This document shows, piece after piece, positions 33,547-45,989 of a DNA stretch of 64,000 bases. Position 1 is the stretch's first letter, and every line of letters begins with the position of its first letter. The position numbers were made by a program, and so were the translations under genes. The notes below the pieces were generated by a model. That model had not been told where the DNA came from. It searched no databases and worked only from the letters and a program-made list of their open reading frames with translations. The DNA is from a virus (Duplodnaviria > Caudoviricetes): IMG/VR virus record IMGVR_UViG_3300014205_000177, positions 32,001 to 96,000 of that record; one strand, written 5' to 3'.

Positions 33547-35886
33547 TTATATTGAACTTAACATTTTCATGTCTTTAATTAAAAACGTTCCATCTTTATA
33601 TCTACCAGTAAATAAATATATTTTATTATTATTAAGATTATTTTTTAAAGCATCATATACATCTGGAAAAAGAATAGCATCCATATTTTGTCTTTTATCA
33701 TAAATATCTAAGAAAGCCATAGTTCTTCCATCGTTTTTACTATTTAATTTACTAATAGAATGTAGCTTAATTTCACTAACCATAGCCACTATCTTTAAAT
33801 CACTATCTGATGGGAAAAATCCGTCAATCATATCAAGTATATCTGTATTGGTTTCTTCTTCTATTATTTTTTTGAATGGCTCTGTAGGGTCTGCTGTAAC
33901 ATAATAATTACAAAGGACAAACTCTTCTCCAAGCATTTCTTCAAGAGTTCTTTTTTCTCCACTATATTCAAAATCTCTTTCTTCTTGTGCAATTTCTGAA
34001 ATACTGTATTCAACTCTTAATTTAACCCCAGAGGCTTTTCTTTTTTGTTGGTCTTTATATTTTACTATTTTCTCTTTTACAAATTCATATTTTGCTAATA
34101 AAATATCTCTGTGCTCTCCCATGAAATCAAAAACCCCAACATTAATCATATTCCTCATAACATCAGCACTTAATACCCCCATATCTGAGTTATACAAAAA
34201 TTCAGTAAAACTTTTTAAATATTCTCTATTTTTTATTAATTCTTTTACTGTTGGAGGAGTAACATTTTTTATAAAAGATAGTCCAAATTCTACAGTTTCA
34301 TCATCTCTTATTTCAAAATAAGCACCACTTGTTAAAGCACTAGGAGGAATTAGTTTTACACCAAGTGTTTTAATTTCATTAATATATGTACCTATTTTTT
34401 CTTTTTCATCTTCTCCATTTATTAATTCACACATAAATTCAGTTGGGAAATGAGCCTTAAACCACGCTGCTTGAAAAGCAATTTTACCATAAGCTACGCT
34501 ATGAGATTTATTGAAAGAATATTTCTGGGCTGTTTCAATTTGTGAAAATATTTCTTCTGTAACACTGTCAGGTCTGCCAAGAGACTTTGACTTTTCATAA
34601 AATAGAGTTTTTGCTTCTGCCATTTTTTCAGGAATTTTCTTGCCAATAGCTTTCCTAAGATTATCAGCTTCTGTCATATTAAATCCAGCATAGTCTTTAG
34701 CAATTTGCATTGCAGTTTCCTGATACAATACAGTATTAAGAGTTTCTTTCATTGAATGCTCTAAAGATGGATGTAAATATTCTATCGGAGATTCACCCTT
34801 TTTGCGCTTAATATAAAGTTCAGTTACACCTGCATGAAGAGTACCAGGTCTAATAAGTGCAGTAAGAGCAAATACATCTTCAAAACAATTGACTTTCATA
34901 CTCTTACACATATTTTGAACATATTTACGTTCTAACTGAAACACTCCTGTAGTTTCTCCTCTTGCAAAAAGTGCTAATGTTCTTTTATCATCCATTTTTA
35001 TATCTACTTCTGCATTTATTTTAATTCCACGTCTTTCATATATCCTATCCATAACCCTTTTCATAATATCAAGAGTATTTAGTCCAAGAACATCTACTTT
35101 TAAAAATCCACCATCTTCCATGTCATACATATCCCATTGAGTAATAGATGAGAATTTATCGGTTTTTGGAGATTTAAATAATGGCATATAATCTGTAATT
35201 GGTTTAGGCGTAATTACAATACCAGAAGCATGTACTCCTGTTGATTTTGATTTACCTGCTAAATCTCTAGCTATATTAAATATCTCAGGATATTTTTTAG
35301 CTTCTTCTTGTAATTCAGGAGAATCTGCAATAGCATCTTCAAAATCTATATCAGCAGATGCTGGAAATTTTTTAGCTATTCTATCTGCAACTTTAGCATG
35401 GTCTGGAATCTGTAAAGCCATAGCTATATTTCTAATTATTGCACGAGACCACATTTTACCAAATGTTATAATGTTAGCAACTCTATCGTTCCCATATTTT
35501 TCTTGTAAGTGAGTAATAACTTCGTCTCTTCTATCTTTACTAATGTCCATATCAACATCAGGCATACTTATACGGCTAGGATTAAGAAAACGTTCAAAAT
35601 ACAAACCATATTTAATAGGGTCAATAGTTGTAATTCCTACAGCATAAGCAATTAGCGAACCGCAAGCACTTCCACGACCTGGGCCTACTGGAATATTATT
35701 ATCTCTACAAAAATCAAGAATGTCTGCAATAATAAGAAAATAATCAACAAATCCCATTTTACTGACTACTTCTAACTCAAATTTTGCTCTATCGAAATAT
35801 TCTTTAGTTTCTGGAATATTTTTTTCTTTCCATCCTTTTTTCATTTTCCAACGAAGAAAGTCTAAATTATTGAATTGTCTGGACAT
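33547..35886 (-). CDS. dnaE: DNA polymerase III alpha catalytic fragment (palm, thumb, fingers, HhH, OB; no PHP)
   Basis: GPGRGSACGS, FERFLNPSR, PDVDMD, GVHASG, KVDVLGL, GVFQLE, RPG, FNKSHS. Confidence 0.93.
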   Translation of the reverse strand: MSRQFNNLDFLRWKMKKGWKEKNIPETKEYFDRAKFELEVVSKMGFVDYFLIIADILDFCRDNNIPVGPGRGSACGSLIAYAVGITTIDPIKYGLYFERFLNPSRISMPDVDMDISKDRRDEVITHLQEKYGNDRVANIITFGKMWSRAIIRNIAMALQIPDHAKVADRIAKKFPASADIDFEDAIADSPELQEEAKKYPEIFNIARDLAGKSKSTGVHASGIVITPKPITDYMPLFKSPKTDKFSSITQWDMYDMEDGGFLKVDVLGLNTLDIMKRVMDRIYERRGIKINAEVDIKMDDKRTLALFARGETTGVFQLERKYVQNMCKSMKVNCFEDVFALTALIRPGTLHAGVTELYIKRKKGESPIEYLHPSLEHSMKETLNTVLYQETAMQIAKDYAGFNMTEADNLRKAIGKKIPEKMAEAKTLFYEKSKSLGRPDSVTEEIFSQIETAQKYSFNKSHSVAYGKIAFQAAWFKAHFPTEFMCELINGEDEKEKIGTYINEIKTLGVKLIPPSALTSGAYFEIRDDETVEFGLSFIKNVTPPTVKELIKNREYLKSFTEFLYNSDMGVLSADVMRNMINVGVFDFMGEHRDILLAKYEFVKEKIVKYKDQQKRKASGVKLRVEYSISEIAQEERDFEYSGEKRTLEEMLGEEFVLCNYYVTADPTEPFKKIIEEETNTDILDMIDGFFPSDSDLKIVAMVSEIKLHSISKLNSKNDGRTMAFLDIYDKRQNMDAILFPDVYDALKNNLNNNKIYLFTGRYKDGTFLIKDMKMLSSI

Positions 35887-38267
35887 TTTTTGTCGCCTTC
35901 CATTATTGGTTTTAATTTCATTCTTGAATAATCTACAAGCGGAGTAGAAAGAGGATTTTTAATATCTACATATTTCTTTTTTATGCCACTATTAGGTTTC
36001 CAATAACTTTTAGAAATACTATCCATAATAGCACTAGCTTCTTCAAATGGCATATCTATACATTTAGATACAATACCCATTTTTGCTAAAAAGAAAAGTT
36101 GCTTAGGAGTACACAATCCTTTTTCACGCCTCTTTATAATAGCATCAACTATCCTGTTTGCAAATCCTTTGTTCATTTTTTTATCCATAAAAATTCCAAC
36201 TTTTGTTAGAAACTCTATTTGCTTTTCACTAATAGGTTGAAATTCCCAATGAAATATAGGTTCATAATTTAATAATGAATCATTTTTAGACAAAAATGCA
36301 AATGTTTTAAAATTCTTTAAATTCTTTTTAAATAAATCAACTTGCGCAATTTTTCTAGCCTCTTCCATTTTAGCTTGAAAAAGAATACAATCAATAATAT
36401 AATGTAAGTCAACTAAATTATAACTATTATTACAATTAGAAATGAGAAAATCACGCATTGCATTAGCTACAGCTTCGTTTTCTGCAATTAGTTTAGATGG
36501 ATGAAATATCTCTTTATTTGATTTCCATATTAAATCAAATAATAATAAGTTTTCTTTACCATTCATCAACCTTGTTCCTCTTCCCATTGCTTGTTTATAA
36601 AAATTAAAAGATTGAGTTGGTCTTAAATTTACAATACAATCAACTGATGGCTCATCCCAGCCCTCATTAAGAAGCAAACTACAAGTTAAAACTTTAATTT
36701 TATTATTAGAAAATGCTTCTAGTTTTTCTTTTCTATCCTTATCTTTACCTGAAATATGAGTAACGTTAAAACCACAAGTAGACATTGCTTTTGCAACTTC
36801 TATAGCTCCATCAATTCTAGGTGTAAATACCACTATTTTTCTATTTGGAGTGTGTTTCATTAAATATTTTGATACAGCTGAAAAATAAGGAGAAATAGCA
36901 TCTTCAAGTTCCCCAACTGAAAAATCTCCAGAAGAGTTTTTAACTTTTGAAATATCTACAGATATATTTGCAGTACGTGCTATTATATTAGACAACCAAC
37001 CATCTTTAATGGCATCTGGAAGTTCATATTCAAATGCTTTTATTTCAAATACTTCGCTTAATTTTTTCTGGTCAGCACGGTCTGGAGTTGCTGTAACACC
37101 TAATAATTTAGATTCAGAAAAATGATTAACTATACGCATATATGTATCTGAAACAATATGATGTGCCTCATCAACTATTATTAAATCAAAAAAATCTTTA
37201 GGATACCTATTAAGCCTTTTTTCTATACATAAAGAATCTTTACTTGCAAAAATTAATTGATGATTTAAATCACCAATAGAACTTTCTTTCTCTAAACTAA
37301 AATCAATACCAGAATCAATTTTTAAAAACTTTTCTATTGCTTGATTTATTAATTCTTCTCTATGAGCAATTATTAATACTTTTCCACCATCTTTTATAAT
37401 ATCAGAAGCTATGGAGTTAAATACTATAGTCTTACCACAATTATGAGTAATTATATTACCTTCCATTAAATATCTTCTATCACCACTTACATGAAATCCA
37501 TAACACGTTCCTACTGCTTCTTTTTCTATAGATTTTATAATTCTAAGAAAAGGTTTTTCTCTAAAACCCTTTATTATTAACCCTGCATCGCAAATGACAC
37601 CATGATTTAAAAATACCGAATCGCACAGTCTGCCTAAATCTTTTCTTATATTAACATTCTTTTTTGGAAAAAAACAAGAAGGATTTCCTTTGTTATTTTT
37701 TAAATGAACCATAAAACCTTTGATAAATTCAATTCTATCTTCGAAAGACATTCTAAAATACTCTTCTTTAATATCCATATCTTTTCTTGCTTTTATACCT
37801 AACATATAAGGTTCAAGGAGTTTATTTTTATAAGGATTCCCAACTCTCAAAATAGGAGCCATTATCATTTTTATATGGTTATTTAAAAGATACTTTGAAT
37901 AAAAACTCATATGCCTAATTGGTACATCTTTTATTACGTCTTTATTGTTACTAGTATCAATAATTGAAAATAAATGATTTCCACCAAGAAGAAATTCGTT
38001 TCTATCTCTTGTAGATTTAACTCTATATATATCATCTTCACTTACAATTACTTCTAATACTGTCCTTGGTGTAGAATCTGCCCCCATTAATTGGTCTCCA
38101 GCCTTGATGTCTTCTACTTTAACTAAATGACCAGTATATTTTAAAACTCTTTGTCCTTTTGCATGACATCCCGTTGGTAAAACTAATAAAACTTTTTTAA
38201 ACCCACTTAACCAAGCTTCTTTTATTGATGATATTGCTTCTTTTTGATAAGGTCTCAAATTTATCAT
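35862..38267 (-). CDS. SF2 DEAH helicase with an intein in Walker A
   Basis: LRPYQ, LPTG/CGKT, DEAHH, TATPDR, EGWD, QAMGRGTR. Confidence 0.92.
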   Translation of the reverse strand: MINLRPYQKEAISSIKEAWLSGFKKVLLVLPTGCHAKGQRVLKYTGHLVKVEDIKAGDQLMGADSTPRTVLEVIVSEDDIYRVKSTRDRNEFLLGGNHLFSIIDTSNNKDVIKDVPIRHMSFYSKYLLNNHIKMIMAPILRVGNPYKNKLLEPYMLGIKARKDMDIKEEYFRMSFEDRIEFIKGFMVHLKNNKGNPSCFFPKKNVNIRKDLGRLCDSVFLNHGVICDAGLIIKGFREKPFLRIIKSIEKEAVGTCYGFHVSGDRRYLMEGNIITHNCGKTIVFNSIASDIIKDGGKVLIIAHREELINQAIEKFLKIDSGIDFSLEKESSIGDLNHQLIFASKDSLCIEKRLNRYPKDFFDLIIVDEAHHIVSDTYMRIVNHFSESKLLGVTATPDRADQKKLSEVFEIKAFEYELPDAIKDGWLSNIIARTANISVDISKVKNSSGDFSVGELEDAISPYFSAVSKYLMKHTPNRKIVVFTPRIDGAIEVAKAMSTCGFNVTHISGKDKDRKEKLEAFSNNKIKVLTCSLLLNEGWDEPSVDCIVNLRPTQSFNFYKQAMGRGTRLMNGKENLLLFDLIWKSNKEIFHPSKLIAENEAVANAMRDFLISNCNNSYNLVDLHYIIDCILFQAKMEEARKIAQVDLFKKNLKNFKTFAFLSKNDSLLNYEPIFHWEFQPISEKQIEFLTKVGIFMDKKMNKGFANRIVDAIIKRREKGLCTPKQLFFLAKMGIVSKCIDMPFEEASAIMDSISKSYWKPNSGIKKKYVDIKNPLSTPLVDYSRMKLKPIMEGDKKCPDNSII
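37440..38168 (-). mobile_element. intein (243 aa) with degenerate endonuclease
   Basis: CHAKGQRVL start, GGNH, CYGFHV...ITHN/C end; removal restores PTG-CGKT. Confidence 0.9.
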
Positions 38268-38827
38268 TTAAAAATCCTTGTTTCTAAAATATTTTTCCCT
38301 ACATTATACTTTAATAATTTTTCCAAAAGAAATAAAGAACTTCTAGCATCACCAAGAGCATCGTGATTACCATATTCTATATTAAAATATTCACACAATG
38401 TTGAAAGTTTCATATCATCAACATCTACTTTTGCTAAAGATGCCATAGTACAGGTATCTATGAATCTAACTGTTCCGAGTGATTTTCCACAAAAATTAAT
38501 TCTCTTATTGATAATAGGGAGGTCACTTTTTCTTATATTATGACCAACAATAATAGCCCCTGAAAAAAAAGATAATATCTTTTCGTGTCTTTCTTCAAAA
38601 CTTTCTTCTCCTAATCTTCTATCATCTGATATTTTATGAGTTTTTAATGCGTAATATGTACTCTTTCCGCCTCCAAACATCCTAGAATATTCATTTATTT
38701 TACCAGATAAAAATTCTACTATTCCAAGTTGTATTATCCTATTATTATCTCCAGATTCACCTGTTGTCTCTATATCAACAGCTATTAATCTCTCAGTGGG
38801 AAATTTTTCAATTATTTGTTTAAACAT
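38264..38827 (-). CDS. DEDDh 3'-5' exonuclease (DnaQ/epsilon-like)
   Basis: DIETTG, GHN...D, IDT, HDALGD. Confidence 0.88.
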   Translation of the reverse strand: MFKQIIEKFPTERLIAVDIETTGESGDNNRIIQLGIVEFLSGKINEYSRMFGGGKSTYYALKTHKISDDRRLGEESFEERHEKILSFFSGAIIVGHNIRKSDLPIINKRINFCGKSLGTVRFIDTCTMASLAKVDVDDMKLSTLCEYFNIEYGNHDALGDARSSLFLLEKLLKYNVGKNILETRIFK

Positions 38828-39315
38828 TTATTAACCTTTCCGCAAGGTTTAAACTCTCCACAAATTCCATTTCTAAATTCACACATTGGACACATTAAAC
38901 ATGCCAACTCTGGGTCAACTTCTGAAATTTTAGACTTTAATTCATCAAAAAACTCACGAGTATAAATCTCGGCTTTAGAACACATTCTTTTATGAGACCA
39001 GTCAATAATATGTTGAGCATTGCACATTATAAAAAAATTACGAGGAGCTAGACGACCATGAACTACAGCAGAACCTATATCAGGTCTACCGCTTTGAACT
39101 AGGAATAATGCTCCATTTTTATCATGAGTTCTCATTTGCATTACTACGCAGTATGGAATATCAGTACAATAGATAGCAAACATTTGGGTTCTGATTGGAG
39201 AATGACCGCTTTTATACCACTTACTCAATGAAGCTTTGGATTTAACTCCGAAAGAATGTTCCATACAACGTTCTAATAATCCTCTGTCTGTTATCTTTTC
39301 TATATTAATTTCCAT
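38812..39315 (-). CDS. short ThyX-like flavin-dependent thymidylate synthase homologue
   Basis: GHSPIR, QMRTH, QSGR, NAQ...KRMCSKA, PMCEFRNGICGEFKPCG; ThyX motif is divergent. Confidence 0.65.
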   Translation of the reverse strand: MEINIEKITDRGLLERCMEHSFGVKSKASLSKWYKSGHSPIRTQMFAIYCTDIPYCVVMQMRTHDKNGALFLVQSGRPDIGSAVVHGRLAPRNFFIMCNAQHIIDWSHKRMCSKAEIYTREFFDELKSKISEVDPELACLMCPMCEFRNGICGEFKPCGKVNKCLNK

Positions 39316-39500
39316 TATTTGTTATCCTTAGTTATTTTTTCATATTCTAATTTATTGATATATACATTTATCCTAGATAAATCCTTTAGGCAAACTCCAC
39401 CAGAGCTGTCTTCTCCAAGGTGTTTGCACATGACACCCTCTAAATGCCCCCATTGTTCTCCTCTTTTAAAACATTTTTCCTTGCATCCACACTTCTTCAT
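39315..39500 (-). CDS. small Cys-rich protein
   Basis: ORF packing. Confidence 0.45.
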   Translation of the reverse strand: MKKCGCKEKCFKRGEQWGHLEGVMCKHLGEDSSGGVCLKDLSRINVYINKLEYEKITKDNK

Positions 39501-39504
39501 TTTA

Positions 39505-41316
39505 TTATCCTTTTAGCTTAAATCCTTCGTTTACATCTTTTATAAAATCATTATAATCTTTTTCTTTTGAGATATCAAAAGCTGGAAACTTATAACCCTC
39601 AAAATTAAGTTTAAATTCTATTCTGTTAGCTATCTCAACTGTCATATCTGCCATTTCTGGAGTTATATAATTCCTAATCATTTGTTCTCTTGTTTTCATA
39701 AATAAACCAGCTGTTTCAAAACCTTCCATTTTACCACCAGTAGCTATTTTTAAAAGAATATTCTGTAACTTATGGTCTCCGTCATTCAAATAATGGCAGT
39801 CATTTGTTACTACACTTTTAACATTATATTTATTAGCTAAAGATATAAATTCAGGAACAATTTTATCATAATCTGGAAAATCAATACACATTACTTCATT
39901 ATAAAACCTGTCTCCAAAATTATCAACAAAAAACTTTATGTTTTCCTCTGCCTTTTTAGGGTCATAGCCTTCTTGGGAAAAATGAAAAGATACTGGACTT
40001 TTATAACATCCAGATAATATTATTAGACCTTCACCATATTTTTGTAAATTTTTTCTATCTGTTCTTGGTTTATAATAAAAACCCTCTCTATTTGCATTAG
40101 TTACAATTTGGCATACGTTTTTCCACCCCGTATCGTTCATTACAAGAATTATTATATGATAATTACTTCTTTGCTCTTTATCTGTAGCATCATCTACATA
40201 ATAAGCTTCTATTCCATGTATTGGCTTAATCCCATTTTTAATACATTCCTTTTGAAACTTATATAAACCAAACATATTGCCATGGTCTGTCAGTGCAAGG
40301 GCTTTAAAACCCATTTCTTTTGCTTTTTTTGCTAATTTATCAACATCAGCTACTCCATCTAACAAACTGTGTGAAGAGTGAACGTGAAGATGAACAAAAC
40401 TATCACTCGGAATAATTATTTTTTCCTCTGTTTTCTTTTCCTGCTTTTTAACCTCAATAACAGCATCTTTCCTAACTTCTTCTTTTTTCGGATATATTTC
40501 TTTAATATTTTTAAGTTTAAAAATAAAACTTCTAGGAAGGTATACATTGGAAGGAACAAATTCTCCACTAAACAAGTTCCCAATTTCCTGAGTAGAATAT
40601 CCAGCAAGTTTACATCCTATTTCACAGACGAGAAATCTATTTTCTGGATGAGAAACAGCATATTTTAAGAAATCTATAATTTCAGACTTGATTTCTTCTA
40701 GGGTTGATGAACGCTCTACAGCCCAATCCTTTTTTGTTACAATAGCATAAGACCTACCCTGTATTCCTCTTGGATTATTCCATTTAGCACCAAAAAACTG
40801 TCTTGCAAATAACGCCGCACCTTTGCCGTGTTTACCGCCAGCATTAGAACCAAAAACAAAAATATCATTATTCTGAGCCAATGAAGCAACTAAAAAATTT
40901 CTAGTTCTATTTTGTATTCCAGGAGAAATACTTTCTCTATTACCTGCAACATTAAGAACTTTTATATTGTTATTAATAAGCCATTCTAAAAACTGATTTT
41001 TTGATTTTACTAGTATATACGGTTTATTATATTTTTCACATACATTAATTGTATATCTAGTTCCAACAGATTTTTCATTAGTTGCAAATATTGCAGTACC
41101 ATCTGATTCTATAACATTTTTTAATGTTCTTTCTTTATAATCACCATCTATCTCTACCAAATTAAATCTATCTCTTAATTCTATACATTGACCATTCTCT
41201 GTTTTAAATTCACTAGGTGCAAAACCACCAACATCTAATCCAAGCAATTCTCCTGCTTCAAGACCTCCTCTGTCACCACCAGATTGACCACCAGAAATAA
41301 TTTTATCAATAATCAT
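39505..41316 (-). CDS. fusion of SLOG (MoCo-carrier-like), Macro-like and DnaE PHP domains
   Basis: IISGGQSGGDRGGL...RTLKNVIESDGT...LNVAGNRES; IFVFGSNAGGKHGKGAA...IGCKLAG; FVHLHVHSSHSLLDG...TDHGN...GIEAY...YYKPR...TNDCHY. Confidence 0.85.
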   Translation of the reverse strand: MIIDKIISGGQSGGDRGGLEAGELLGLDVGGFAPSEFKTENGQCIELRDRFNLVEIDGDYKERTLKNVIESDGTAIFATNEKSVGTRYTINVCEKYNKPYILVKSKNQFLEWLINNNIKVLNVAGNRESISPGIQNRTRNFLVASLAQNNDIFVFGSNAGGKHGKGAALFARQFFGAKWNNPRGIQGRSYAIVTKKDWAVERSSTLEEIKSEIIDFLKYAVSHPENRFLVCEIGCKLAGYSTQEIGNLFSGEFVPSNVYLPRSFIFKLKNIKEIYPKKEEVRKDAVIEVKKQEKKTEEKIIIPSDSFVHLHVHSSHSLLDGVADVDKLAKKAKEMGFKALALTDHGNMFGLYKFQKECIKNGIKPIHGIEAYYVDDATDKEQRSNYHIIILVMNDTGWKNVCQIVTNANREGFYYKPRTDRKNLQKYGEGLIILSGCYKSPVSFHFSQEGYDPKKAEENIKFFVDNFGDRFYNEVMCIDFPDYDKIVPEFISLANKYNVKSVVTNDCHYLNDGDHKLQNILLKIATGGKMEGFETAGLFMKTREQMIRNYITPEMADMTVEIANRIEFKLNFEGYKFPAFDISKEKDYNDFIKDVNEGFKLKG

Positions 41317-42331: not shown

Positions 42332-42910
42332 TTAAACTGCTTTAGATTCCATTATCACAGTAAAATGTTCTTCTTTTATTTTTTCCCATGATTTTTGTTC
42401 TTCTTCTTTTGAAAGAAATCTAAAATATTTATCAACTGGAACTAATACAGGACCGGCTCCATAGTCAAGATATGACCTTGAACTAAGATATAGAAATTTA
42501 GTCATTTTAGATAAGCTCTTTAAATATTCTTCTAAAACGTCTACTGGTATATGTTGAAAAACTAATGAAGCAACTACTATATCAAACTTTCTTTGTTTTA
42601 AATCATCCCATTGATTAACAGTAAAAAGTTCTAAATTTTTTGTTTCAGAATATCTTTTATCTTTTTTTAATAATTCTATCATATTGGGAAAATCATAACC
42701 TACTACATTGTTTGCTATATTTGTAAGCGCAAAAGTATTTCTACCCATCCCACAACCAAAATCAAGAACATTTTTATGTTCAACAGTAGAAACTAACTTT
42801 AACATTTCGGTTGAAGCAATTAAATCTTCCCGTGTCTTAGCTACACTAATAATTAAGTGTGGAGCAGTTTCTTCGTTAGCTTTTCCCCAATCGTTTTTAT
42901 AAATTCTCAT
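42332..42910 (-). CDS. class I SAM-dependent methyltransferase
   Basis: VLDFGCGMGR, FDIVVASLVFQH. Confidence 0.88.
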   Translation of the reverse strand: MRIYKNDWGKANEETAPHLIISVAKTREDLIASTEMLKLVSTVEHKNVLDFGCGMGRNTFALTNIANNVVGYDFPNMIELLKKDKRYSETKNLELFTVNQWDDLKQRKFDIVVASLVFQHIPVDVLEEYLKSLSKMTKFLYLSSRSYLDYGAGPVLVPVDKYFRFLSKEEEQKSWEKIKEEHFTVIMESKAV

Positions 42911-43526
42911 TTTTATTTCCTTTTATTGCTACAAAAAATATTGCATTTCCTCTTGAAAACATTACCATTTCAGTATGCGTAAGTTTATATCCTATGCCAT
43001 TAAATAGTTCTTCTAAGTCTTTAACTTCAAACTCCCTATAGTGCCACTTGTCAACATGCTGTGCTGACTTTTCAGGAACAGTGCCAATGATAAGACGAGG
43101 GTTTAATAATTTAATATTCTGCATTACAACTTCAGGATTAGGAAAGTGCTCAAGTATTTCACAGGCAACTACAACAGTTTTAGTATTATATATGTTTGGC
43201 TCAAAGCAGTCTTCTTTTCCTATGTCTACAATAAAAAATCCTATATCTGATACACGATTATCTTGTGCAAACTCTATTGTTTCTATGGAATCATCTATTC
43301 CAACTACAGCACAACCGCAAAGTTCATATAGTAATTCACTTCCAAATCCAGAACCGCATCCAATATCATAAACTCTATCATCTTTATTTATATACTTAGC
43401 CGCCATCCTATAACGTGTAGATGGTAATCCTAAGAATTCATCCTTTTTTATAATTCTTTCACCCGAAGTGAATGACTTACTTCTATTTCTATTTTCTTCG
43501 TTCATTTTCCTCCTAACATATCTCAT
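42897..43526 (-). CDS. class I SAM-dependent methyltransferase
   Basis: RY...VYDIGCGSGFG, GID, EILEH, GTVP, HYREF. Confidence 0.88.
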   Translation of the reverse strand: MRYVRRKMNEENRNRSKSFTSGERIIKKDEFLGLPSTRYRMAAKYINKDDRVYDIGCGSGFGSELLYELCGCAVVGIDDSIETIEFAQDNRVSDIGFFIVDIGKEDCFEPNIYNTKTVVVACEILEHFPNPEVVMQNIKLLNPRLIIGTVPEKSAQHVDKWHYREFEVKDLEELFNGIGYKLTHTEMVMFSRGNAIFFVAIKGNKNENL

Positions 43527-44628
43527 TTATTATTTTTGTCATTTTTTCACATGCTATTTTCCAAGTCCATTTATTAATCATGTCTCTTCTTGCATTAATT
43601 CCTTTCATGTTCTTATCTGACCTATTATTATAAACAAATCTCATAGTTTCAATTAAATGGTCTTTATCTATCTCTGCCCAATTTTGACCAGCATAATGAG
43701 GAAATTTAGCACATTGTTCATCTGAAACTGGAACTATTTTACAATCCACTAAGTACCCATTATCTTTATTTATAAATTCAGTATGTGAACTCCAGTTTGT
43801 TGCTATACATGGTACTCCACACCCCATGCTTTCACTAAAACATAGCCCCCATCCTTCTCCTCTTGTAGGAGAAACATAACAGTCTATACTGTTATAAAAT
43901 CCAGCCATATCATCGGCATTAATCATTTGCGGCATCAACATTATTTCTGAATCTTTATTTCCAACAAAATTACGTATTTCTTTTATTTTTTCTTTAACTG
44001 TTTCTGTAAATTTATTTGAATATTCATAATGAGCATATATTTTTAACAATAAAGAAACATCTTTTCTACCTTTAAAAGCCCTAAGATAACATTCAATTAA
44101 AGCATTTGGATTTTTTCTTGGAGTCCAATCAAAATTAGAACCAAAAACAAATTTATTTGGTATTTTTTTTATTAATGGTTTTTTTTCAGGGCTAAACCTA
44201 TCAGTGTCAACTCCGTGAGGAATTACAAAAATAGGGTTTCTTATTCCTGAATTATAAAACGTATTTTTATTAAATTCACTATATGTAAAAACATAATCCA
44301 TAGCCCTTATTGGCATTACCCATGATTTTGGGATGCCATCTGTTTCAAAAGTTGTCATACAAGAATGGAAGCTCTTACCTTTATTAATTATTTGATAATT
44401 TTCTGGTGTTACATTAAAAATTACAATATCAAAATCTTCACTATCCTTATTCATTAATGGATTCAATTTATTAAAAAATTCTTTACCTAAACCAACAGTA
44501 CCACCCTTATAAAATTTTAAAGATTTTAATTGTAGATTAACACCATTCATATTATATACATAATTTCTTGATGCTTCACCATATCCGCTTGGGTCGTGAA
44601 AAGACCCTACCCATAATACGTTTTTCAT
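43513..44628 (-). CDS. GT-B (GT4-like) glycosyltransferase
   Basis: SGYG, IPHGVD, RKN, EGWGLCFSESMGCGVP. Confidence 0.9.
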   Translation of the reverse strand: MKNVLWVGSFHDPSGYGEASRNYVYNMNGVNLQLKSLKFYKGGTVGLGKEFFNKLNPLMNKDSEDFDIVIFNVTPENYQIINKGKSFHSCMTTFETDGIPKSWVMPIRAMDYVFTYSEFNKNTFYNSGIRNPIFVIPHGVDTDRFSPEKKPLIKKIPNKFVFGSNFDWTPRKNPNALIECYLRAFKGRKDVSLLLKIYAHYEYSNKFTETVKEKIKEIRNFVGNKDSEIMLMPQMINADDMAGFYNSIDCYVSPTRGEGWGLCFSESMGCGVPCIATNWSSHTEFINKDNGYLVDCKIVPVSDEQCAKFPHYAGQNWAEIDKDHLIETMRFVYNNRSDKNMKGINARRDMINKWTWKIACEKMTKIINEIC

Positions 44629-45989
44629 GCTTTCACCAATTCAATCTTTTCTTCATTTTTGTTTTTATTAATCATACGAGATATTAAAACATCCCACTGT
44701 GGGATAATTTTATCCCAAGAATATTTTTCTATTTGCATTCTACCGGCAATACTTAACATTTTTCTTGCTTTATCACCTGTTATTTCTGGCTTTTTAGATT
44801 CTGGATAAGCTTGTTTTAAATAACTACCCCATTTTTCATAAAATACACTATTATCATTATAATATAATTTATCTAATCTCATAGCATAATCATAAACATC
44901 AACAATGGCTCTTTCTATATTAGAATTTGTTTCTGTAAAATAATCTGAAACACTAATTAATTCTGAACATGGAGCACAAAAGTCAATATGACCTGAATAA
45001 TTAGTGACAACGGTAGGAGTTCCACAAGCCATAGCTTCTGCAATAGGGAGACCAAATCCTTCTCCAGTTGTTGGGAGTGTAAATATATCGAACAGGTTAT
45101 AGAGTTCGCACAATGTTTCTGAAGTTACACCTGCACCTACGTTCATTTTTGGTGGAATTATTACATTACCGAATAACTTGTAAGTATTTATTAGTTCTGG
45201 TATATTCCAACCAAAGTCTTCTCCTCCAGGAGTATGAAGGTAAAGGCGAGCTTCTTTTTTACCATCACGAACTTCAATTTTTTCGCTACCACAAAATTCA
45301 CATTTTTTTTCAGAAAATGACATTTCTCCACATTCACAACAAATACAATAAGGTCTACAAAACAAAGAAAAAGCTTGCATTAATTTAGGGATATTTTTTC
45401 TTGGTTGATTTCTACATACAGTCCCGATTACAAACAAATCTTTAGACTTGTATTTTATACGTAGTGATTCTTTATTACAAATAGGTTTAAATATATCTAT
45501 ATCAACACCATGTGGTATTGCAACTATTTTATTAAGATTTATCCCTAATTTTATAATTTCATTAAACCCAAAATTACCATATGCAACAACCATATCAATG
45601 TTTTCAAGTAAATTTTTCCATCTTATTGAAAATGGAACACCATCAACAGGGACATACGATATTAATTTATAACTATTTCTATAAGGGCTCTTTATCATTG
45701 ACTCTATCATCCATATATCTCCAACTGTCAATACTATTTCTGGCTTATAAACAGATACAACTTCATTAAACGTTATACCAGAATACATATCATCTTTAGT
45801 TGCTTTTGTAGATATAATTTCATAAGGAACCATTTCTTGGTTTTTTTGTCCATGCCAATTAAACCACCCTATTGTCTTTATTTCATACTTTTCCATATTA
45901 AAAAGACCAATAGCCATTTCTTTAACAACTCTTCCGAATCCTGTATGAATCAAACTTGAATCACCTACAATTAATATTTTTGGTTTCAT
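44625..45989 (-). CDS. GT-B (GT4-like) glycosyltransferase with inserted Zn ribbon
   Basis: TGFG, IPHGVD, RNQPRKN, CCECG...CEFCGS insert, EGFGLPIAEAMACG. Confidence 0.9.
   Translation of the reverse strand: MKPKILIVGDSSLIHTGFGRVVKEMAIGLFNMEKYEIKTIGWFNWHGQKNQEMVPYEIISTKATKDDMYSGITFNEVVSVYKPEIVLTVGDIWMIESMIKSPYRNSYKLISYVPVDGVPFSIRWKNLLENIDMVVAYGNFGFNEIIKLGINLNKIVAIPHGVDIDIFKPICNKESLRIKYKSKDLFVIGTVCRNQPRKNIPKLMQAFSLFCRPYCICCECGEMSFSEKKCEFCGSEKIEVRDGKKEARLYLHTPGGEDFGWNIPELINTYKLFGNVIIPPKMNVGAGVTSETLCELYNLFDIFTLPTTGEGFGLPIAEAMACGTPTVVTNYSGHIDFCAPCSELISVSDYFTETNSNIERAIVDVYDYAMRLDKLYYNDNSVFYEKWGSYLKQAYPESKKPEITGDKARKMLSIAGRMQIEKYSWDKIIPQWDVLISRMINKNKNEEKIELVKA

What the first reader, a model, noticed from the sequence alone, without database searches (positions are those of the whole stretch)
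39505..41316. SLOG and Macro-like domains fused to the replicase PHP subunit: candidate fork-tethered ADP-ribose eraser or sensor
Seen: one ORF with a MoCo-carrier-type SLOG domain (aa 1-147), an IFVFGSN..G.HG.GAA domain (about aa 150-265), a Lys/Glu linker lacking any Met, then the DnaE PHP domain (from aa 307). Established: SLOG and Macro domains bind or process NAD+/ADP-ribose derivatives, and DarT toxins block phage replication by ADP-ribosylating ssDNA. Inference: the phage carries ADP-ribose-processing domains on its polymerase to clear lesions at the fork or to counter NAD-based defences, and the dnaE split may have enabled this. I know of no characterised example. The Macro assignment is from motif recall.
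Basis: partly seen in the sequence, partly recalled or inferred. Interest (0 to 1): 0.85.

Follow-up and report, generated by a model that had tools for sequence, protein, structure and literature searches.

The report
DarG-like macro domain on phage replicase
A complete 178-kb phage makes the PHP subunit of its split DNA polymerase III only as a fusion to a SLOG domain and a DarG/TARG1-like ADP-ribose-removing domain, so the replicase probably carries its own eraser of the ADP-ribose marks that bacterial DarT toxins put on phage DNA; no activity has been measured.

Summary
It has four parts:
- a cpYpsA SLOG domain (aa 6-144);
- a domain of the A1S_2505/phrog_2072 family, which has no Pfam model (aa 152-264);
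- a Lys/Glu tether with no internal start codon;
- the PHP/N-terminal part of a split DnaE.

The fold matches TARG1 and DarG (Z 11.7 and 11.3). A profile comparison with DarG macro domains gives E 3e-7. The DarG catalytic Thr-Lys, Asn22 and Trp83 equivalents are present.

The fusion is not an assembly artefact: eight further protein clusters from independent metagenomes share it, and the gene order was the same in the two relatives examined. The same macro family is also fused to an unsplit DnaE and to SF1 helicases, so the dnaE split is not needed.

Best reading (about 0.45): a replisome-tethered DNA de-ADP-ribosylase against DarT2-type defence. Main rival: processing or sensing of soluble ADP-ribose signals.

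Stand-alone phage anti-DarT macro proteins (AdfM) and phage SLOG-Macro fusions are already published. This is therefore a new variant of a known kind. This scan had already noted the same stretch in another reading of this window.

The parts
39505..41316 (-). Whole ORF, 603 aa (P0001): SLOG - macro - tether - PHP/DnaE N-terminal part
40885..41301 (-). cpYpsA SLOG domain, aa 6-144 (Gly-rich loop GGQSGGDRGG; NVAGNRES motif)
   Evidence: PF12694 E 3.2e-33. PDB 3imk E 5.9e-15. Residues invariant among the 9 fusion proteins.
40525..40863 (-). TARG1/DarG-like macro domain of the A1S_2505/phrog_2072 family, aa 152-264
   Evidence: NF049995 E 4e-35. AF2 model pLDDT 93.5. Foldseek top hits TARG1 and DarG. 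VIA-align Z 11.7 and 11.3. hhalign against DarG macro domains: probability 93%, E 3e-7.
40732..40734 (-). Codon of Lys195, which aligns with the catalytic Lys of TARG1 (K84) and DarG (K80); it lies in the motif T194-K195-K-D-W198
   Evidence: the roles of K80 and K84 are from PMC5179494 and PMC8501950
40399..40521 (-). Lys/Glu-rich tether, aa 266-306, predicted disordered or a lone helix; no internal start codon
   Evidence: pLDDT below 50 over aa 266-304; composition and start-codon scan
39508..40398 (-). PHP domain plus the rest of the DnaE N-terminal region, aa 307-603; the nine residues I take to be the PHP metal ligands are present (H309 H311 D320 H345 E370 H387 C437 D506 H508)
   Evidence: PF02811 E 6.5e-47 and TIGR00594 positions 1-301; these residues are invariant in alignment A3
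33547..35886 (-). Second half of the split dnaE: polymerase core, 779 aa (P0305), starting at the palm
   Evidence: PF07733 E 1.6e-83 at window 35083-35856; translation; predicted to bind the PHP fragment
35862..38267 (-). SF2 helicase with an intein-like Hint insert, lying between the two dnaE halves
   Evidence: ResIII, Helicase_C and Hom_end_hint hits; orthologue without the insert is 551 aa
38264..38827 (-). DEDDh (DnaQ-like) 3'-5' exonuclease
   Evidence: PF00929 E 2.2e-15
38812..39500 (-). Two small ORFs (61 and 167 aa) of unknown function directly downstream of the fusion gene; small ORFs sit at the same position in relatives

Best explanation
The gene encodes the PHP subunit of a two-piece phage DnaE replicase. 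This subunit carries a compact SLOG-macro module on a flexible tether of about 40 residues. The macro domain is an orphan DarG/TARG1-like ADP-ribosyl glycohydrolase. Its likely mechanism uses Lys195, with Asn158 and Trp198 positioning the adduct, to cleave the ribose-base bond of ADP-ribosylated thymidine in single-stranded DNA. That is the lesion DarT2-type toxins place on phage DNA to stall replication. Because the PHP fragment docks on the polymerase core, the eraser sits at the fork, where the template is single-stranded and where the lesion blocks synthesis. The SLOG domain most likely binds an ADP-ribose or nucleotide moiety; it could act as a second glycosidase for another linkage or as a ligand or ssDNA grip.

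Shown here: domain identities, conserved catalytic residues, the obligate fusion, its conservation, and predicted docking on the core.

Inferred: the DNA substrate, DarT as the opponent, and what the SLOG domain does.
For: 1. Fold. The AF2 model of aa 148-270 has pLDDT 93.5. Its best PDB matches are TARG1 and DarG macro domains: Foldseek probability 1.0; VIA-align Z 11.7 for TARG1 (rmsd 2.5 A over 113 residues) and Z 11.3 and 10.9 for DarG.

2. Sequence. A profile of the family aligns with DarG macro domains taken from beside darT in genomes of the MAG's own bacterial family: hhalign probability 93.2%, E 3e-7, 114 columns.

3. Catalytic residues.
- T194-K195 aligns with DarG T79-K80 and TARG1 T83-K84. 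Thr is present in 69 of 69 family members and Lys in 64 of 69.
- N158 aligns with DarG N22 and is invariant.
- W198 aligns with DarG W83. An aromatic residue is present here in all 9 fusion proteins.
- DarG K80A and TARG1 K84A abolish removal of ADP-ribose from DNA and rescue from DarT (PMC5179494, PMC8501950).

4. Tethering to the replicase.
- No internal start codon exists for a free PHP protein.
- The linker is disordered.
- PHP fragment plus DnaE core give a complex prediction score of 0.87 against a best control of 0.01. That mark was reached by 58 of 80 solved complexes and 2 of 110 mismatched pairs. The runs agree in at least 94% of contacts and the partner's pLDDT is at least 88. This pass is expected from likeness to solved intact DnaE structures.

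5. Recurrent fusion to DNA-handling enzymes.
- SLOG-macro-PHP is found in 9 clusters.
- The macro domain is fused to an unsplit DnaE in an unrelated ~100-kb phage (P0212).
- The macro domain is fused to SF1/PIF1 helicases (P0027) and lies beside SF1 helicases in giant phage proteins.
- The SLOG domain sits at the C-terminus of a DnaE fragment (P0026) and is fused to an SF1 helicase (P0020).

6. The fusion holds the only SLOG copy and the only macro copy of this family in the phage and the MAG.

7. Precedent. Phage orphan macro (AdfM) and NADAR (AdfN) enzymes remove DarT marks from DNA, and polymerase mutations let a phage escape DarTG2 (PMC13309987, PMC13716836, PMC11825919).

8. DarT occurs in 9 of 165 genomes of the putative host's family.
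Against: - No biochemical data exist for any member of this macro family.
- Sequence similarity to solved macro domains alone is below threshold (E about 0.8). The Z scores for TARG1 and DarG are only about 1.5 above those of alphavirus macro domains.
- This copy has Lys236 where DarG has G119. The G119E change strongly reduces DarG activity. The family mostly has Gly here (47 of 69) but tolerates S, D, K and H.
- The TARG1 D125 equivalent is Ala. DarG also lacks this Asp.
- No DarT was found in the MAG (93% complete) or in 3 genomes of the same genus. The MAG is only a presumed host, because the phage contig was binned with it.
- SLOG-macro modules also occur with NADAR, DUF4326 phosphatase-like and IF-2B-like (ribose-phosphate isomerase family) partners. 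Iyer et al. read that pattern as processing of soluble ADP-ribose derivatives (PMC9503650).
- The two characterised AdfM proteins belong to a different macro family. The family profile finds nothing in phiKZ or T4, while positive controls do match.
Confidence: 0.45

Rival explanations
1. The SLOG-macro module works on soluble NAD-derived molecules, not on DNA. It would bind or degrade immune signals or toxic metabolites such as cyclic ADP-ribose isomers, His-ADPR, ADPr-1''-phosphate or O-acetyl-ADP-ribose. Fusion to the polymerase subunit would then only ensure early, stoichiometric co-expression, or would let the ligand-bound SLOG domain tune replication.
For: - Iyer et al. 2022 found phage SLOG domains fused to Macro, NADAR and DUF4326 domains. 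They predicted division of labour on soluble ADP-ribose derivatives, and SLOG sensor fusions to exonuclease and helicase domains (PMC9503650).
- Relatives found here pair cpYpsA with NADAR, DUF4326, DSPc and IF-2B-like domains.
- The TARG1/DarG structural neighbourhood also contains Poa1p, an ADPr-1''-phosphate phosphatase.
Against: - The catalytic Thr-Lys, Asn and Trp pattern matches the DNA-acting DarG.
- Both domains are repeatedly fused to DnaE and SF1 helicases in different architectures.
- A sponge or scavenger for a diffusible molecule gains nothing obvious from being limited to replisome copy number.
Confidence: 0.27
2. The macro domain removes ADP-ribose from proteins, as TARG1 does on Glu/Asp. 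It would protect the phage replisome itself, or neighbouring proteins, from a host ADP-ribosyltransferase defence, or reverse a phage-made modification.
For: TARG1, the top structural match, was first characterised as a protein Glu/Asp-ADP-ribose hydrolase with the Lys84/Asp125 dyad. Tethering to a target protein would make sense for self-protection.
Against: The Asp of the TARG1 dyad is Ala here. Alignment and motif details (TKK-x-W, Asn158) follow DarG rather than TARG1. I did not search the phage for ADP-ribosyltransferase genes, so nothing here links the domain to a phage-made protein modification.
Confidence: 0.1
3. The macro and/or SLOG domains are non-catalytic readers. They would bind ADP-ribosylated template DNA, or a nucleotide, and recruit, stall or switch the polymerase; for example they could signal lesion bypass or hand the template to the PHP or DEDDh exonuclease.
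For: Many macro domains are binders only. This copy carries Lys at the DarG G119-equivalent position, where G119E cripples DarG. The SLOG superfamily includes the ssDNA-binding protein DprA.
Against: Invariance of N158, H163, T194 and N257 and near-invariance of K195 across 69 diverse members looks like an enzyme active site.
Confidence: 0.1

Closest known systems
DarG2 antitoxin macro domain (Thermus aquaticus and M. tuberculosis DarG; PDB 5m3e, 5m3i)
   Same: Macro fold (Z 11.3 and 10.9). Profile homology (E 3e-7). Thr-Lys catalytic motif, Asn22 and Trp83 equivalents, Gly-rich loop, and no TARG1-type Asp.
   Different: No adjacent darT and no C-terminal DarT-binding domain. It is fused instead to a SLOG domain and a polymerase PHP domain. 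Lys236 replaces the DarG G119 equivalent. It falls in a separate sequence family (NF049995/phrog_2072) with no Pfam model.
AdfM, phage anti-DarT2 macrodomain proteins (phiKZ gp104, T4 Tk.4; PMC13309987, PMC13716836)
   Same: Phage-encoded orphan DarG-like macro domain. In phiKZ the protein is also concentrated where phage DNA replicates (the phage nucleus).
   Different: AdfM is a stand-alone protein of a different macro family: the family profile finds nothing in the phiKZ or T4 genomes, and a tk.4 protein (Acinetobacter phage 133) appears only as a distant structural neighbour. Here localisation would come from covalent fusion to the replicase. No activity has been shown.
Human TARG1/OARD1 (PDB 4j5s, 2l8r)
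   Same: Best structural match (Z 11.7, rmsd 2.5 A over 113 residues). Lys84 equivalent conserved. TARG1 also removes DarT-made thymidine ADP-ribose (PMC8501950).
   Different: The Asp125 equivalent is Ala. Only 13-15% identity in the structural alignments.
Viral SLOG-Macro/NADAR/DUF4326 modules and SLOG sensor fusions (Iyer, Burroughs, Anantharaman, Aravind 2022; PMC9503650)
   Same: YpsA-clade SLOG joined to a Macro domain in a large phage. SLOG fusions to nucleic-acid enzymes (exonuclease, SF1 helicase) are listed there.
   Different: That paper does not mention fusion to PHP or DnaE (0 occurrences of 'PHP' or 'DnaE'). It favours soluble ADP-ribose substrates.
PHP domain of DnaE1-type Pol III alpha with intrinsic proofreading (e.g. 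mycobacterial DnaE1)
   Same: The nine residues I take to be the PHP metal ligands are conserved, and the domain matches positions 1-301 of DnaE models.
   Different: It is encoded as a separate polypeptide, cut at the PHP/palm boundary. The core lies 3.6 kb downstream, beyond four intervening genes.

Membership tests
Macro domain superfamily, TARG1/DarG-like class | Macro fold (mixed beta-sheet between helices) superposable on TARG1 and DarG | tested here: met
   AF2 pLDDT 93.5. Foldseek probability 1.0 for TARG1 and DarG. VIA-align Z 11.7 (rmsd 2.5 A, 113 aligned residues) and Z 11.3; 190 chains, the listed ones nearly all macro domains, reach Z 8 or more.
Macro domain superfamily, TARG1/DarG-like class | Sequence or profile homology to DarG/TARG1 macro domains | tested here: met
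   hhalign of A1 against three DarG macro domains: probability 93.2%, E 3e-7, 114 columns. The HMM search against PDB is only sub-threshold (E 0.8-1.3 to TARG1 and BT1257). No Pfam Macro hit.
Macro domain superfamily, TARG1/DarG-like class | Catalytic lysine after a conserved Thr (TARG1 K84, DarG K80) | tested here: met
   T194-K195 aligns with TK in both TARG1 and DarG. Thr is present in 69/69 and Lys in 64/69 family members.
Macro domain superfamily, TARG1/DarG-like class | Asn equivalent to DarG N22 and the Gly-rich diphosphate loop (DarG G117-x-G119) | tested here: inconclusive
   N158 is invariant and aligned to the DarG Asn. G234 is present, but this copy has K236 at the G119 position. 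The family has G in 47/69 members, with S, D, K, A and E also seen there (H in two of the fusion proteins). DarG G119E is strongly impaired.
Macro domain superfamily, TARG1/DarG-like class | TARG1 Asp125 of the Lys/Asp dyad | tested here: not met
   Ala238 at that column (60/69 Ala). DarG also lacks the Asp (Gly), so this argues against TARG1-type chemistry on Glu esters, not against DarG-type activity.
Macro domain superfamily, TARG1/DarG-like class | Binds ADP-ribose and hydrolyses ADP-ribosyl adducts | not testable with these tools
   Needs biochemistry.
DarTG2 toxin-antitoxin system (DarG antitoxin) | Encoded next to a darT toxin gene | tested here: not met
   No PF14487 match anywhere in the phage contig or the MAG. 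The neighbours are replication genes.
DarTG2 toxin-antitoxin system (DarG antitoxin) | C-terminal DarT-binding domain after the macro domain | tested here: not met
   The macro domain is followed by a K/E linker and a PHP domain.
AdfM (phage anti-DarT factor, macro) | Same sequence family as phiKZ gp104 or T4 Tk.4 | tested here: inconclusive
   Profile A1 finds no match (E up to 10) in the phiKZ or T4 genomes, while it matches two control phages at E 1e-48 to 1e-53. A tk.4 protein (Acinetobacter phage 133) is a distant structural neighbour (E 6.7e-3).
AdfM (phage anti-DarT factor, macro) | Protects the phage from DarTG2 by removing ADP-ribose from DNA | not testable with these tools
   Needs plaque assays and de-ADP-ribosylation assays.
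cpYpsA SLOG family (PF12694) | Match above Pfam's gathering score over the whole model, with the Gly-rich nucleotide loop | tested here: met
   115 bits against a cut-off of 26.2, model positions 1-143 of 145. PDB 3imk E 5.9e-15 with GGQ(S/T)G(G/A)DR aligned. G9, G10, Q11, G13 and D15 are invariant in the fusion family.
DNA polymerase III alpha (DnaE), PHP domain | PHP domain with the nine metal-binding residues | tested here: met
   PF02811 scores 160 bits. H309, H311, D320, H345, E370, H387, C437, D506 and H508 are invariant in A3. Their assignment as ligands comes from established knowledge of DnaE1-type PHP domains, not from a structure here.
DNA polymerase III alpha (DnaE), PHP domain | Contiguous polymerase core (palm, thumb, fingers) in the same polypeptide | tested here: not met
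   DnaE models are matched only over positions 1 to about 305. The core is a separate ORF at 33547..35886. Docking is predicted with a score of 0.87 against a best control of 0.01.

The most novel reading that the evidence does not exclude
A replicative DNA polymerase with a built-in base-adduct eraser. The SLOG-macro module, tethered to the PHP subunit, would remove ADP-ribose from template bases in cis just ahead of synthesis, making replication itself resistant to DarT-type immunity. The SLOG domain would widen the range of linkages removed, or sense the adduct. On this reading, the wider A1S_2505/phrog_2072 family is a large unrecognised class of phage DNA de-ADP-ribosylases that work alongside helicases and polymerases. 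That family has about 4,000 clusters at 50% identity and occurs in 431 deposited phage genomes and in giant phage proteins of up to about 5,800 aa.
Probability: 0.35. Interest if true: 0.8.

Novelty: new variant of a known kind. Interest (0 to 1): 0.62.

Why it matters
DarT toxins stop phages by ADP-ribosylating single-stranded DNA. Three counter-measures are known: free erasers (AdfN, AdfM), DarT inhibitors (AdfA, AdfB), and polymerase mutations that read through the lesion.

A polymerase subunit that carries a DarG-like eraser would combine the first and third routes in one protein. It would also be an unusual case of direct damage reversal physically coupled to a replicase.

The finding also gives a testable function to a very large phage protein family that has no Pfam model and is mostly annotated 'hypothetical'. 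In addition, it offers a natural construct for asking what cpYpsA SLOG domains bind.

Tried and rejected
- **Assembly artefact or chimeric ORF: rejected.** The fusion recurs in nine clusters, the gene order was conserved in the relatives examined, and there is no internal start codon.
- **'Split enabled the fusion': rejected.** P0212 is a macro domain fused to an unsplit DnaE. Its N-terminal 145 aa are not SLOG (hhalign probability 0.3).
- **Membership in the characterised AdfM family.** The family profile found nothing in phiKZ or T4, while positive controls matched.
- **Poly(A) polymerase.** The profile search of PDB gave top hits to poly(A) polymerase (E 0.34) through a short FGS..G.H.KGA motif. 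I dismissed these as a local motif match because the fold is macro.
- **Pfam scan of ten multi-domain family members.** No partner domains came up except one LRR, so this was uninformative.
- **Other ADP-ribose genes.** No DarT, no NADAR, and no second SLOG or macro copy was found in the phage or MAG.
- **Burroughs et al. 2015 (the SLOG classification).** The paper could not be retrieved, so statements about cpYpsA rest on Pfam and PMC9503650.
- **A1S_2505 literature search.** It returned only unrelated Acinetobacter papers.
- **Full-length AF2 model.** pTM is 0.47 and no inter-domain error map is available, so I make no claim about how SLOG and macro pack against each other.
- **Net charge of the macro domain.** It is +5 here against a family median of +2. 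This is too weak to use as evidence for DNA binding.
Full report
**Observation**

The stated coordinates hold one open reading frame, but on the minus strand (41316 to 39505, 603 aa). The plus strand is closed in that frame.
- The cpYpsA SLOG domain (PF12694) covers aa 6-144 with E 3.2e-33. Its nearest solved relative is 3imk, deposited as a 'putative molybdenum carrier protein', at E 5.9e-15.
- The middle domain, aa 152-264, has no Pfam model. It matches NCBIfam NF049995 'A1S_2505 family phage non-structural protein' at E 4e-35 and phrog_2072 at E 6e-31.
- The PHP domain (PF02811) covers aa 309-476 at E 6.5e-47. DnaE models are matched only over their first ~300 positions.
- The linker, aa 266-306, has 11 Lys, 7 Glu and no Met. 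There is no in-frame ATG, GTG or TTG between aa 256 and 316, so the PHP part can only be made as the fusion.

**Setting**

The window lies on contig C2 of a 4.0-Mb MAG. C2 is 177,804 bp. Its first 123 bases recur at its end, its GC content is 30.4% against a median of 33.6% for the MAG, and it is a tetranucleotide outlier. It is therefore a complete phage genome binned with a presumed host.

The gene sits in the replication module. On the minus strand the order is: DnaB-like helicase, primase, an unassigned 220-aa ORF, RuvC-like resolvase, PD-(D/E)XK nuclease, two glycosyltransferases, two methyltransferases, two unknown ORFs, the fusion gene, two small ORFs, a DEDDh exonuclease, an SF2 helicase with a Hint insert, the DnaE polymerase core (33547..35886, PF07733 E 1.6e-83), and a zinc-ribbon protein.

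dnaE is thus split exactly at the PHP/palm boundary, with four genes between the halves.

**Is the fusion real?**

Eight further 90%-identity clusters (P0005-P0012, 48-68% identical over the full length) have the same SLOG-macro-PHP order. The contigs I examined for P0005 and P0008, from ENA and Logan assemblies of different samples, show the same neighbouring genes, including the split core. Five of the clusters carry an extra domain of about 130 aa between macro and PHP. An assembly artefact is excluded.

**What the middle domain is**

The domain family is large. It has 3,990 clusters at 50% identity and occurs in 431 deposited phage genomes, mostly annotated as 'hypothetical protein' and occasionally as 'macro domain-containing protein'.

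With an alignment of 69 members, AlphaFold2 gives a confident model (pLDDT 93.5, pTM 0.87).
- Foldseek against PDB returns almost only macro domains among its leading hits, led by TARG1/C6orf130 and the DarG macro domains, at probability 1.0 but modest E-values of 2e-3 and weaker.
- VIA-align gives Z 11.7 for TARG1 (rmsd 2.5 A over 113 residues) and Z 11.3 and 10.9 for DarG. Alphavirus and other macro domains follow at Z 9-10.
- The family HMM against PDB sequences reaches TARG1 only below threshold (E 0.8). The alignment is nevertheless meaningful: 'YAIVTK' falls on TARG1 'YLITK84' and 'IGCGLAGY' on 'IGCGLD125R'.

For an independent sequence test, I took three DarG genes lying directly after darT in genomes of the MAG's own bacterial family. 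I compared their macro domains with the family profile. The result was hhalign probability 93.2%, E 3e-7, over 114 columns. In that alignment:
- N158 falls on the DarG Asn22 equivalent.
- T194-K195 falls on T79-K80.
- W198 falls on W83.
- G234 falls on G117.

Across the 69 family members N158, H163, T194 and N257 are invariant, and Lys195 is present in 64. All nine polymerase fusions have an aromatic residue at the Trp198 position.

In DarG, K80A abolishes DNA de-ADP-ribosylation and antitoxin function, N22A is the next most damaging change, and W83 was proposed to stack on the modified thymine (PMC5179494). TARG1 K84A likewise loses the ability to reverse DarT (PMC8501950).

There are two caveats. 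The TARG1 Asp125 position is Ala, although DarG also lacks that Asp. This particular copy has Lys236 where DarG has G119; G119E is strongly impaired in DarG, but the family tolerates S, D, K and H at this position.

More specifically, the domain belongs with the TARG1/DarG class.

**Is it tethered to the replicase?**

The nine residues I take to be the PHP metal ligands (H309, H311, D320, H345, E370, H387, C437, D506, H508) are invariant among the fusion proteins. Their assignment as ligands rests on established knowledge of DnaE1-type PHP domains.

A full-length model shows folded domains joined by a low-confidence stretch at aa 266-304 (pLDDT 76.3 overall, pTM 0.47).

Co-folding aa 300-603 with residues 1-650 of the separately encoded core gave a score of 0.87 against a best control of 0.01. 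That mark was reached by 58 of 80 solved complexes and 2 of 110 mismatched pairs. The three runs agree in at least 94% of contacts and the partner's pLDDT is at least 88. Intact DnaE structures are solved, so this pass shows likeness to the normal intramolecular PHP-palm packing rather than proving binding. It is still the expected result for a functional split.

**Wider pattern**

Within the sequences retrieved, both accessory domains are repeatedly joined to DNA replication enzymes.
- P0212 (1,455 aa, from a ~100-kb phage contig with DnaB, ThyX, RNR and tail genes) has an unknown 145-aa domain, then the macro domain (NF049995 E 1.8e-36), then a complete unsplit DnaE. The split is therefore not a precondition for the fusion.
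- P0026 is PHP plus the Pol III alpha domain with cpYpsA at its C-terminus. A DUF4326 gene lies nearby.
- P0027 is the macro domain fused to an SF1/PIF1-type helicase, and P0020 is SLOG fused to the same helicase type.
- In several giant phage proteins of 1,700-5,100 aa, and in the 4,775-aa 'DNA helicase' of crAss-like phage cr50_1, the macro domain occurs too. In the four of these checked (not cr50_1) the same protein also carries an SF1 helicase domain, directly adjoining the macro domain in two of them.

The same domains also occur with NADAR, DUF4326, DSPc and IF-2B-like partners.

In this phage and MAG the fusion holds the only copy of either domain, and there is no NADAR.

**Comparison with what is known**

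DarT toxins ADP-ribosylate ssDNA and block phage replication. The published counter-measures are:
- AdfA and AdfB, which inhibit DarT;
- AdfN, a NADAR eraser;
- AdfM, a macro-domain eraser, shown biochemically for phiKZ gp104 and genetically for T4 Tk.4;
- polymerase mutations that allow escape from DarTG2.

These come from PMC11481870, PMC11825919, PMC13309987 and PMC13716836.

Iyer et al. 2022 catalogued SLOG-Macro/NADAR/DUF4326 fusions in large phages. They also listed sporadic SLOG fusions to exonuclease and SF1 helicase domains, and they favoured soluble ADP-ribose substrates or a sensor role. The paper does not mention PHP or DnaE (PMC9503650). A literature search for PHP, macrodomain and DnaE together found nothing relevant.

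The family profile finds no match in the phiKZ or T4 genomes, while it matches control phages at E 1e-48 or better. The characterised AdfM proteins therefore belong to another macro family, and I found no tested member of this one.

**Mechanism and odds**

I consider a replisome-tethered DNA de-ADP-ribosylase directed at DarT2-type lesions the most likely reading, at about 0.45. Three lines support it: the DarG-like active-site pattern, the obligate and conserved tether to the replicase, and the recurrent helicase and polymerase partners. DarT is present in 9 of 165 genomes of the presumed host's family, though not in the MAG or its genus.

The rivals are:
- processing or sensing of soluble ADP-ribose-derived signals, as Iyer et al. 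proposed (about 0.27);
- removal of protein ADP-ribosylation (about 0.10);
- a non-catalytic reader role (about 0.10).

What the SLOG domain does is not resolved by anything here.

**Verdict**

This is a new variant of known kinds (phage orphan DarG-like macro domains and phage SLOG-Macro modules). The new feature is covalent attachment to a replicative polymerase subunit. All functional statements remain predictions.

Noticed in passing
window 33547-41316 (-): dnaE is split exactly at the PHP/palm boundary into two genes. They are separated by 3.6 kb holding two small ORFs, a DEDDh exonuclease and an SF2 helicase. Relatives have the same arrangement apart from the exonuclease, which has no detected counterpart there, and no intein flanks the split.
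   Followed up: partly
window 35862-38267 (-): The SF2 (ResIII/Helicase_C) helicase is 801 aa and has a Hom_end-associated Hint hit at aa 34-89. The orthologue in a related phage is 551 aa with no Hint hit, so the gene probably carries an intein of about 250 aa.
   Followed up: partly
L004:11623-15084 and L005:7721-11182: In a related phage lineage the DnaE core is itself interrupted: a 141-aa Pol III alpha fragment, a 275-aa ORF with no Pfam hit, then a 745-aa remainder. This looks like insertion of a mobile element or homing endonuclease.
   Followed up: no
window 42332-45989 (-): Two SAM-methyltransferase genes and two GT4 glycosyltransferase genes (one also matching the 'GT4-conflict' family) sit inside the replication module. 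P0005's phage has a similar block. They may be a DNA hypermodification cassette.
   Followed up: no
contig C2 of G000 (window = C2:32001-96000): C2 is 177,804 bp and its first 123 bases recur at its end. Its GC content is 30.4% against 33.6% for the MAG, and it is a tetranucleotide outlier. It is a complete phage genome binned with a bacterial MAG, so the MAG is only a presumed host.
   Followed up: yes
P0006, P0007, P0008, P0009, P0011 (e.g. L004:7254-9452): Five of the fusion clusters carry an extra conserved domain of about 130 aa with no family assignment between the macro domain and the PHP linker.
   Followed up: no
L006 (MT774375.1, crAss-like phage cr50_1, 65825-80149): The same macro family lies inside a 4,775-aa protein annotated 'DNA helicase'. 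Among the 150 best representatives of the family, 33 are proteins longer than 1,500 aa, which suggests frequent use in giant multi-domain phage proteins.
   Followed up: partly
window 38264-38827 (-): A separate DnaQ-like DEDDh exonuclease is encoded even though the PHP domain keeps the nine residues I take to be its metal ligands. The phage replicase may therefore have two proofreading activities.
   Followed up: no
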